This document shows positions 1,168-1,353 of a stretch of 64,000 nt of DNA, in pieces. The DNA is from Octopus vulgaris (lineage: Eukaryota). The stretch lies in contig OX597834.1 of NCBI GenBank assembly GCA_951406725.2, forward strand, positions 15,376,001-15,440,000. Direction: 5' to 3'. The notes below the pieces were generated by a model. The model made no database searches and had not been told where the DNA came from. It worked only from the letters and a program-made list of their open reading frames with translations. Numbering within the stretch: position 1 is the first letter of the stretch; the number at the start of each line of letters is the position of its first letter. The position numbers were made by a program, and so were the translations under genes.

Positions 1168-1236
1168 AGAACCTGAAGATGTGTTGGAATAATTGTAAAT
1201 CTGACAATTGCATATATGTATTTATATATGTATATA

Positions 1237-1292
<56 letters not shown>

Positions 1293-1353
1293 TATACAGT
1301 TGTGATATTGTATATACATTCTAATCTTCTAATACTGAAACACGTGTCGTTCT
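1168..1353 (+). ncRNA. Type I hammerhead ribozyme with long (TA)n-containing loop II
   Basis: agaac-CTGAAGA-t-gtgttggaa..(~135 nt)..ttctaatac-t-GAAA-cacgtg-TC-gttct. Stem I 5 bp, stem II 9 bp, palindromic stem III, GUC triplet. Confidence 0.75.

What the first reader, a model, noticed from the sequence alone, without database searches (positions are those of the whole stretch)
1168..1353. Hammerhead whose loop II is a (TA)n microsatellite
Seen: the two halves of a complete core (agaac-CTGAAGA at 1168 and GAAA-cacgtg-TC-gttct at 1337) are ~155 nt apart. They are joined by a 9-bp stem II (gtgttggaa/ttctaatac) enclosing ~80 nt of TA repeat, which is itself self-complementary. Inference: a ribozyme that tolerates or carries an expandable microsatellite. 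Length-limited searches would miss it, and repeat length might tune cleavage.
Basis: partly seen in the sequence, partly recalled or inferred. Interest (0 to 1): 0.72.

Follow-up and report, generated by a model that had tools for sequence, protein, structure and literature searches.

The report
Microsatellite-prone hammerhead in decayed Penelope retrotransposon
This is a real hammerhead-ribozyme motif in a broken end piece of a Penelope-like jumping gene; its whole family has an unusually long, TA-rich side arm, but the extra TA repeat in this copy likely grew by ordinary slippage after insertion and is predicted not to tune cutting.

Summary
The two hammerhead halves are real and belong together: 100 of 111 places in this genome that hold the 5' half also hold the 3' half downstream. 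The motif lies in the 3' untranslated end of a decayed Penelope-like retrotransposon with Hydra-clade protein motifs; the window holds only a ~400-base stub between two TA arrays. The family's helix II is long by itself (mode 107 nt; 55 nt in a sister subfamily; at most 26 nt in published Hydra elements) and is built partly of degenerate TA repeat. The window's 157 nt is a private expansion: 39 of 100 copies reach 120 nt or more, each differently, without clustering on a tree; some carry inserted transposons; a TA run outside the ribozyme expands too (6 of 48). Folding predicts no effect of TA number (2 to 100 units). The family triplet is GUA; the GUC here is private. Stem III is a loopless palindrome, so cutting likely needs a dimer. 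Cleavage is untested. This scan has already noted long-armed hammerheads of octopus Hydra elements on other DNA. What this adds: arm length differs between source lineages (55 versus 107 nt) through microsatellite-like sequence.

The parts
1028..1441 (+). Stub of the 3' untranslated end (pLTR region) of a Penelope-like retrotransposon; cut on both sides, about 140-180 nt kept before the core and about 100 nt after GAAA (full copies run about 370 nt after GAAA). Left edge blurred by the TA array (996-1040).
   Evidence: Alignments to paralogues; 3' ends of 29 of 100 copies mapped
567..1040 (.). Flanking TA-rich microsatellite array, 5' side
1435..1660 (.). Flanking TA-rich microsatellite array, 3' side
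1162..1172 (+). Stem I, 5' strand: outer TGAA (1162-1165), internal loop, inner AGAAC (1168-1172; 4 pairs in most copies, 5 here)
   Evidence: two outer pairs change on both sides between subfamilies
1173..1180 (+). Core box CUGAAGA and U10.1
   Evidence: U.U at the base of stem II in 78 of 100 copies
1181..1189 (+). Stem II, 5' strand (9 pairs with 1327-1335)
1191..1209 (+). Small predicted hairpin inside helix II with a 7-nt loop, kept in all three subfamilies; one pair is G-C in 15, G-U in 11 and A-U in 8 of 34 aligned copies and never broken
   Evidence: a rod-like alternative fits almost as well
1212..1290 (+). TA-rich tract; about 50 nt longer than in modal copies; pure (TA)24 at 1243-1290
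1291..1326 (+). Family sequence of the 3' part of helix II, with private changes
1327..1336 (+). Stem II, 3' strand and U11.1; T1330 is C in the family (a G-C pair turned to G-U here)
1337..1348 (+). Core box GAAA, loopless palindromic stem III ACACGTGT (1340-1347) and cleavage nucleotide C17 (1348; A in 91 of 97 copies that keep U16.1)
   Evidence: two copies of the segment are predicted to form an 8-bp duplex, -11.7 kcal/mol
1349..1357 (+). Stem I, 3' strand (GTTCT, then TTCA of the outer helix)

Best explanation
This is the type I hammerhead motif at the 3' end of a decayed Penelope-like retrotransposon with Hydra-clade protein motifs; its family has a long TA-rich helix II (mode 107 nt), and the extra 50 nt of TA in this copy likely arose by neutral slippage after insertion and is predicted not to affect cleavage. 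Shown: the anatomy, the link to a reverse transcriptase and GIY-YIG-like endonuclease frame, the length spread, the private nature of each expansion. Inferred: in source elements two hammerheads of a tandem transcript would pair through the palindromic stem III and cut after GUA, freeing unit-length RNA; helix II points away from the core and closes on itself, so it could lengthen (55 nt in one subfamily, 107 nt in this one) without breaking the core; this stub has no partner copy in the window or the 6 kb before it and is likely inert.
For: Repeat family: 276 and 232 candidates for the two halves; both halves in order at 100 of 111 places with the 5' half. Upstream of paralogues: endonuclease frame with CxCX5C, CxxC and CxH (Atlas first hit GIY-YIG cluster, 0.94); near-full copy L087 with DKT and YRDD reverse transcriptase motifs and the element's own 3' tail joined before the frame. 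Lengths: mode 107 (16 of 100), 55 of 100 at 95-119, 39 of 100 at 120 or more, all 39 different; units TA, TG, CA, TATG; a mariner-like element and a LINE piece lie inside the arm of L088 and L087. Same picture in 27 copies found by a motif outside the ribozyme: 12 of 27 at 120 or more. No clustering of long arms on a tree of 92 of the 100 copies: 25 changes against 28.8 +/- 2.5 shuffled, 21 of 200 shuffles as low. A 9-nt TA run 190 nt upstream, outside the ribozyme, reaches 25 nt or more in 6 of 48 copies. Copies are 5.9% (modal) and 7.0% (long) from the majority letters, closest pair 2.4% apart; 12 of the 15 best endonuclease matches hold stops. Predicted stem II probability 0.57 in 28 modal and 0.58 in 15 long copies; flat in TA number. 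Core columns vary less than flanks in total (8 against 23.4 expected) but only weakly for rare changes (8 against 13.7, P 0.07), as expected if selection acted on sources, not copies. U.U at the base of stem II in 14 of 26 Hydra rows of File S2 of PMC8557442.
Against: Cleavage is not shown. RNA reads give no pile of ends at the cut, at a depth too low to tell (61 reads), and no copy among 52 + 23 examined starts exactly at the cut (nearest -4, +8, +9). RNAalifold on 34 copies predicts no consensus pairs. Stem II itself has no pair changed on both sides. In this copy the minimum-energy fold is not the hammerhead (stem II probability 0.12). The tree is star-like and poorly resolved (3 of 89 branches starred), so its test is weak. 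A second, interrupted TA-rich control site downstream did not expand (0 of 33), and 4 of the 48 upstream control rows are duplicates of one block. The deficit of rare core changes (P 0.07) leaves room for some selection on copies or for many source elements. Copies were collected by similarity or exact motifs, which favours intact cores. Clade membership rests on motifs, not on a tree with reference elements.
Confidence: 0.75

Rival explanations
1. The family's hammerhead had already lost activity as helix II grew; the motif was carried passively and the element spread without it.
For: Type I hammerheads usually need a loop II-stem I contact for speed (PMC3088659, PMC6155905, passages); minimal Penelope hammerheads cut poorly even as dimers (PMC4209133); many Naiad and Chlamys elements spread without canonical hammerheads (PMC8557442). 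No cut-site ends seen.
Against: Core boxes, U.U, palindrome and stems are the same in three subfamilies that differ 16-20% in flanks; outer stem I and the small hairpin change on both sides; shared variants avoid the core.
Confidence: 0.15
2. Repeat length in helix II tunes cleavage, in this copy or in source elements.
For: Arm length does differ between source lineages (55 nt in 11 of 11 copies of subfamily C, mode 107 in A); small predicted shifts at +4 to +10 units in two modal copies (stem II probability 0.82 to 0.35 and back to 0.75); tertiary contacts are not modelled. With the flanking TA arrays included the hammerhead fold costs 12.6 instead of 3.5 kcal/mol, so context could act as a switch.
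Against: Flat fold energy from 2 to 100 units in this copy; expansions private, of several repeat units, with transposon insertions; no partner for dimer cleavage near this stub; long-armed copies do not keep the core better (22 of 39 against 41 of 55, P 0.08).
Confidence: 0.05
3. The long arm is a functional domain of its own (docking site for the element's protein or tertiary contact through the conserved small hairpin), and its TA-rich part helps the element find TA targets.
For: The small hairpin and its loop are kept in all subfamilies, with a pair never broken in 34 rows; mapped 3' ends are followed by TA-rich sequence in most of 29 copies.
Against: Hydra elements with arms of 26 nt or less also insert in (TA)n (PMC8557442 Files S1, S2); a sister family here with intact frames has a 16-nt arm; a rod-like fold fits nearly as well; one compensatory change is one event.
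Confidence: 0.05

Closest known systems
Hammerheads of Hydra-clade Penelope-like elements (Craig et al. 2021, PMC8557442, section 11, Files S1-S2; includes Hydra-1_Obim and Hydra-1_cRog)
   Same: Type I motif near the 3' end; CUGANGA-U ... U-GAAA with U.U at the base of stem II (14 of 26 rows); near-palindromic stem III; Hydra-1_cRog has the same GAAC, CUGAAGAU and ACAC/GUGU; (TA)n insertion sites; CxCX5C, DKT, CxxC, CxH in the protein.
   Different: Helix II is 55-107 nt in source lineages and up to kilobases in copies, against 26 nt or less in the 26 Hydra rows (up to about 54 nt in the non-canonical PLE-X rows); KWK where RWK is described; element about 3.6 kb rather than under 3 kb.
Minimal hammerheads of metazoan Penelope-like elements (Cervera and de la Pena 2014, PMC4209133; Lunse et al. 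2017, seen only as cited in PMC6765202)
   Same: Short stem I (4-5 bp), longer than usual stem II, palindromic stem III that needs a dimer, mostly lone truncated copies.
   Different: U.U instead of an extra base plus G10.1-C11.1; helix II several times longer and microsatellite-like.
Discontinuous CLEC2 hammerhead (Martick et al. 2008, seen as described in PMC6155905)
   Same: Core halves far apart, 150-1500 nt.
   Different: Type III, insertion in helix I, conserved in host mRNAs; here type I, helix II, in a decayed mobile element.
Long-armed hammerheads of octopus Hydra elements noted earlier in this scan (e1-9869997, e1-10310291, e1-10346801, e1-9589713; unreviewed)
   Same: Hydra-type element, helix II of about 45-170 nt, small conserved loop, TA surroundings.

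Membership tests
Type I hammerhead ribozyme | Core CUGANGA, GAAA, UH at a three-way junction, ends in stem I | tested here: met
Type I hammerhead ribozyme | G10.1-C11.1 (R-Y) pair at the base of stem II | tested here: not met
   U.U in 78 of 100 copies; a known tolerated variant (PMC3088659, passage) and common in Hydra elements
Type I hammerhead ribozyme | Stems supported by compensatory change | tested here: inconclusive
   92% of cells paired against 31-56% when slid; 3 of 22 pairs change on both sides (275 of 500 shuffles as high), none in stem II proper; RNAalifold gave no pairs
Type I hammerhead ribozyme | Self-cleavage after H17 | not testable with these tools
   RNA depth too low; no copies start at the cut
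Minimal (dimer-type) Penelope hammerhead | Palindromic stem III that cannot close as a monomer | tested here: met
   ACACGTGT in 57 of 100 copies, single-change forms in most others; predicted 8-bp duplex
Minimal (dimer-type) Penelope hammerhead | Lies in the terminal repeat of a Penelope-like element | tested here: met
   Downstream of the endonuclease frame in paralogues; 3' tail repeated before the frame in L087; inverted pairs
Hydra clade of Penelope-like elements | Single frame, reverse transcriptase then C-terminal GIY-YIG endonuclease | tested here: met
   L087 (broken) matches the intact 862-aa sister frame at 45-58%; Atlas leads RT-like 0.94-0.98 and GIY-YIG 0.94; Pfam itself found no family
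Hydra clade of Penelope-like elements | CxCX5C linker; CxxC and CxH beside conserved E and N; no CCHH cysteine pair inside GIY-YIG | tested here: met
   read by eye against section 11 of PMC8557442
Hydra clade of Penelope-like elements | DKT in place of DKG | tested here: met
   L087, L084, sister frame
Hydra clade of Penelope-like elements | N-terminal RWK motif | tested here: inconclusive
   KWK at the likely place; not aligned to reference proteins
Hydra clade of Penelope-like elements | Insertion in (TA)n | tested here: met
   TA-rich sequence follows most of the 29 mapped 3' ends
Hydra clade of Penelope-like elements | Generally under 3 kb | tested here: not met
   3160 nt from the 5' junction to the core in L087 plus about 480 nt; described as general, not strict
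Hydra clade of Penelope-like elements | Groups with Hydra elements in a reverse transcriptase tree | not tested
   No reference proteins were available as tool sequences

The most novel reading that the evidence does not exclude
In this retrotransposon lineage an active hammerhead grew a large branched helix II out of a microsatellite (55 to 107 nt between source lineages), keeping a small conserved hairpin as a docking loop, and slippage of that repeat in source copies sets the cleavage rate and so the element's activity.
Probability: 0.07. Interest if true: 0.65.

Novelty: new variant of a known kind. Interest (0 to 1): 0.28.

Why it matters
If the 107-nt form cleaves, hammerhead searches with short helix II limits undercount these ribozymes in microsatellite-rich animal genomes, and the three subfamilies give a natural series (55 nt, intermediate, 107 nt, plus hundreds of nt in copies) for testing how much a hammerhead arm can grow and whether a microsatellite can seed new RNA structure. 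The TA expansion in this one copy is ordinary decay and matters little.

Tried and rejected
Rfam at gathering thresholds: 0 matches. Halves from unrelated repeats: rejected. Neptune clade, my first label from recall: dropped after reading section 11 of PMC8557442. Pfam on the endonuclease and on the sister frame: no family. RNAalifold on 34 decayed copies: 0 pairs. Copies starting at the cut: none among 52 + 23. A shorter-armed form (18-48 nt) with the same stem II ends: 0 matches. Expression: no RNA holder listed; 61 reads in about 5.5 billion letters of three RNA runs of coded organism B, in both orientations, no pile of ends: uninformative, and this was a paralogue (L045), not the window copy. 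Arm length in other organisms: both halves are in contigs of four runs of four coded organisms, but the tool skips the arm as repeat, so lengths and alleles of the window locus stay unknown. A partner copy in the window or the 6 kb before it: none. Literature: searches listed no paper on a microsatellite-bearing or 50-150-nt helix II in a Penelope hammerhead (listings only for most hits; 'long helix II' in PMC13725137 means 6-8 bp). Lunse et al. 2017 was not held.

Full report
Observation. A strict scan gives this one hit in the window and 5 in 200 shuffled windows; Rfam gives none. The stem encloses 137 nt, only 79 of them TA-rich and 48 pure TA. Stem II opens with U.U. Stem III is the loopless palindrome ACACGTGT. 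The triplet GUC is private.

What it belongs to. The window is a piece of a 2.8-Gb animal genome (octopus-like by earlier notes of this scan, and by recall, not by a call of mine). Each half is a dispersed repeat (276 and 232 candidates, 40 scored each). Among 194 loci fetched, 111 distinct places hold the 5' half; 100 of them hold the 3' half downstream, 11 do not, and 23 further places hold the 3' half alone. Paralogues that reach further upstream carry a broken frame with an endonuclease (CxCX5C linker, IY...YIG, CxxC, CxH), and L087 is near full length, with KWK, DKT and YRDD motifs and the element's own 3' tail joined in front of the frame. These are the marks listed for the Hydra clade of Penelope-like elements (PMC8557442, section 11), a lead I took from note e1-9869997 after first guessing Neptune from recall. 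Membership rests on motifs: RWK reads KWK, the element is about 3.6 kb, and no tree with references was made. The window copy is a stub, about 1028-1441, between two TA arrays, without a second family copy in the window or the 6 kb before it.

Helix II in the family. Of 100 copies with both halves, 6 have 94 nt or less, 55 have 95-119 (mode 107, 16 copies), 16 have 120-156, 8 have 157-260 and 15 more than 260; 23 of 100 are as long as the window copy or longer; 36 of 100 hold a TA run of 20 nt or more. A genome-wide census with one exact gapped motif gave 0, 11, 19, 16 and 4 matches for arms of 18-48, 49-79, 80-110, 111-141 and 142-172 nt (the window copy does not match it because of a private change). 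A set found by a motif outside the ribozyme (52 places, 27 with both halves) gave 12 of 27 at 120 nt or more. The modal 107-nt arm is itself about half degenerate TA/TG repeat. Subfamilies differ: C has 55 nt and no microsatellite in 11 of 11 copies (9 picked by a length-limited motif; 7 of 7 in the search without length limit), B is intermediate and very unstable (79-762 nt in 9 copies), A, which holds the window copy, has mode 107; they form an unrooted ladder C-B-A with 16-20% flank divergence between and 10-11% within groups. A sister family with intact frames has a 16-nt arm and the 26 published Hydra rows have 26 nt or less, so growth is the likelier direction; this is inferred, not rooted.

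Is the expansion functional? All 39 long arms differ in sequence and use TA, TG, CA or TATG units; two hold a mariner-like element and a LINE piece. Long arms do not cluster on a tree of 92 of the 100 copies (8 left out for short alignment): 25 changes against 28.8 +/- 2.5, 21 of 200 shuffles as low; the tree is star-like, so the test is weak. Copies lie 5.9% (modal) and 7.0% (long) from the majority letters (P 0.19), the window copy 6.7%, the closest pair 2.4% apart; 12 of the 15 best endonuclease matches hold stops. A 9-nt TA run 190 nt upstream, outside the ribozyme, has grown to 25-48 nt in 6 of 48 copies, while an interrupted 17-nt tract downstream has not grown in 33; helix II has about three short TA tracts, so 36 in 100 is of the order that neutral slippage would give. 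Long-armed copies keep the core no better (22 of 39 against 41 of 55, P 0.08). In the unbiased set core columns show 8 changes against 23.4 expected, but against 13.7 when only rare changes count (P 0.07): this fits selection on source elements, and does not exclude a little on copies.

Folding. The region folds well (z -4.7), mostly through the TA hairpin. The hammerhead-compatible fold of this copy is 2.0 kcal/mol above the minimum, with stem II probability 0.12; its ensemble cost is 3.5-3.6 kcal/mol for any TA number from 2 to 100, and 12.6 once the flanking TA arrays are included. Mean stem II probability is 0.57 in 28 modal and 0.58 in 15 long copies with intact core and stems. On 34 aligned copies the named structure pairs in 92% of cells (31-56% when slid); changes on both sides occur in outer stem I and in a small hairpin inside helix II, none in stem II proper; a rod-like inner arm fits nearly as well. 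RNAalifold predicted nothing on these decayed rows.

How it likely works. From PMC4209133 (parts 1-2 of 4 of the text read) and PMC6765202 (passages): Penelope hammerheads with palindromic stem III cut as dimers, weakly in vitro, and are proposed to free unit RNAs from tandem transcripts. By inference the source elements here cut after GUA in that way; U10.1-U11.1 is a tolerated variant (PMC3088659, passage). Helix II is peripheral and a TA tract closes on itself, so the arm could lengthen at little cost. After insertion each copy decayed and its TA tracts slipped or were hit by other elements. None of the catalytic steps is shown: RNA data were too thin and no copy starts at the cut.

Comparison and novelty. 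It works like, and by motifs is, a Hydra-type Penelope hammerhead; far-apart core halves are known from the CLEC2 ribozyme (as described in PMC6155905, passages). I found no paper on 50-150-nt or microsatellite-bearing helix II in these elements (searches; mostly listings). Unseen material may bear on this: Lunse et al. 2017 (not held), the supplements of PMC4209133, and all but part 2 of 57 of the supplement of PMC8557442; the preprint 10.64898/2026.07.22.740005 was seen as abstract only. Earlier unreviewed notes of this scan report long arms in other octopus Hydra families; none matched this sequence. Verdict: real motif, new variant of a known kind, expansion ordinary; interest 0.28.

Noticed in passing
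window 108-154, minus strand: A second, compact hammerhead-like motif of another repeat family (CTGATGA at 149-143, 22-nt helix II, GAAA at 120-117, 5-bp stem I), read by eye; opposite strand and a different stem III, so not a likely dimer partner.
   Followed up: partly
window 1634-3688, plus strand: 685-aa open frame with a reverse transcriptase domain (RVT_1, E 1e-30), a LINE piece starting in the TA array just after the stub.
   Followed up: partly
window 5042-5817, 7650-8186, 40105-40656: Tandem arrays of a 173-184-nt unit; from recall it resembles an octopus SINE, not checked.
   Followed up: no
L188-L193: A sister Penelope-like family with intact 838-862-aa frames (6 of 6 fetched) and a compact 16-nt helix II hammerhead found in 5 of the 6, about 270 nt before the frame in 4: likely a younger family, better for activity tests.
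   Followed up: partly
L002, L003, L008-L016 (contig C29, 27.6-29.4 Mb): At least 11 near-identical 5'-half-only copies, interrupted inside helix II by a LINE-like sequence, in a repeated block (segmental duplication).
   Followed up: no
L088 and L087, inside helix II: A mariner-like transposon (286-aa frame, inverted ends) and a LINE piece inserted in the TA tract of the arm; several 330-640-nt arms hold other repeats.
   Followed up: partly
L004, L089, L195, L199, L200, L249, L250, L252: Eight of 52 copies found by the downstream motif begin 94-97 nt after the predicted cut. This is close to the motif used to find them, so it may be a bias, but the cluster is tight and several are joined to inverted element sequence.
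   Followed up: no
L030/L055, L027/L046, L082, L116: Inverted pairs of element ends a few hundred bases to 1 kb apart, the arrangement described for Penelope-like insertions.
   Followed up: no
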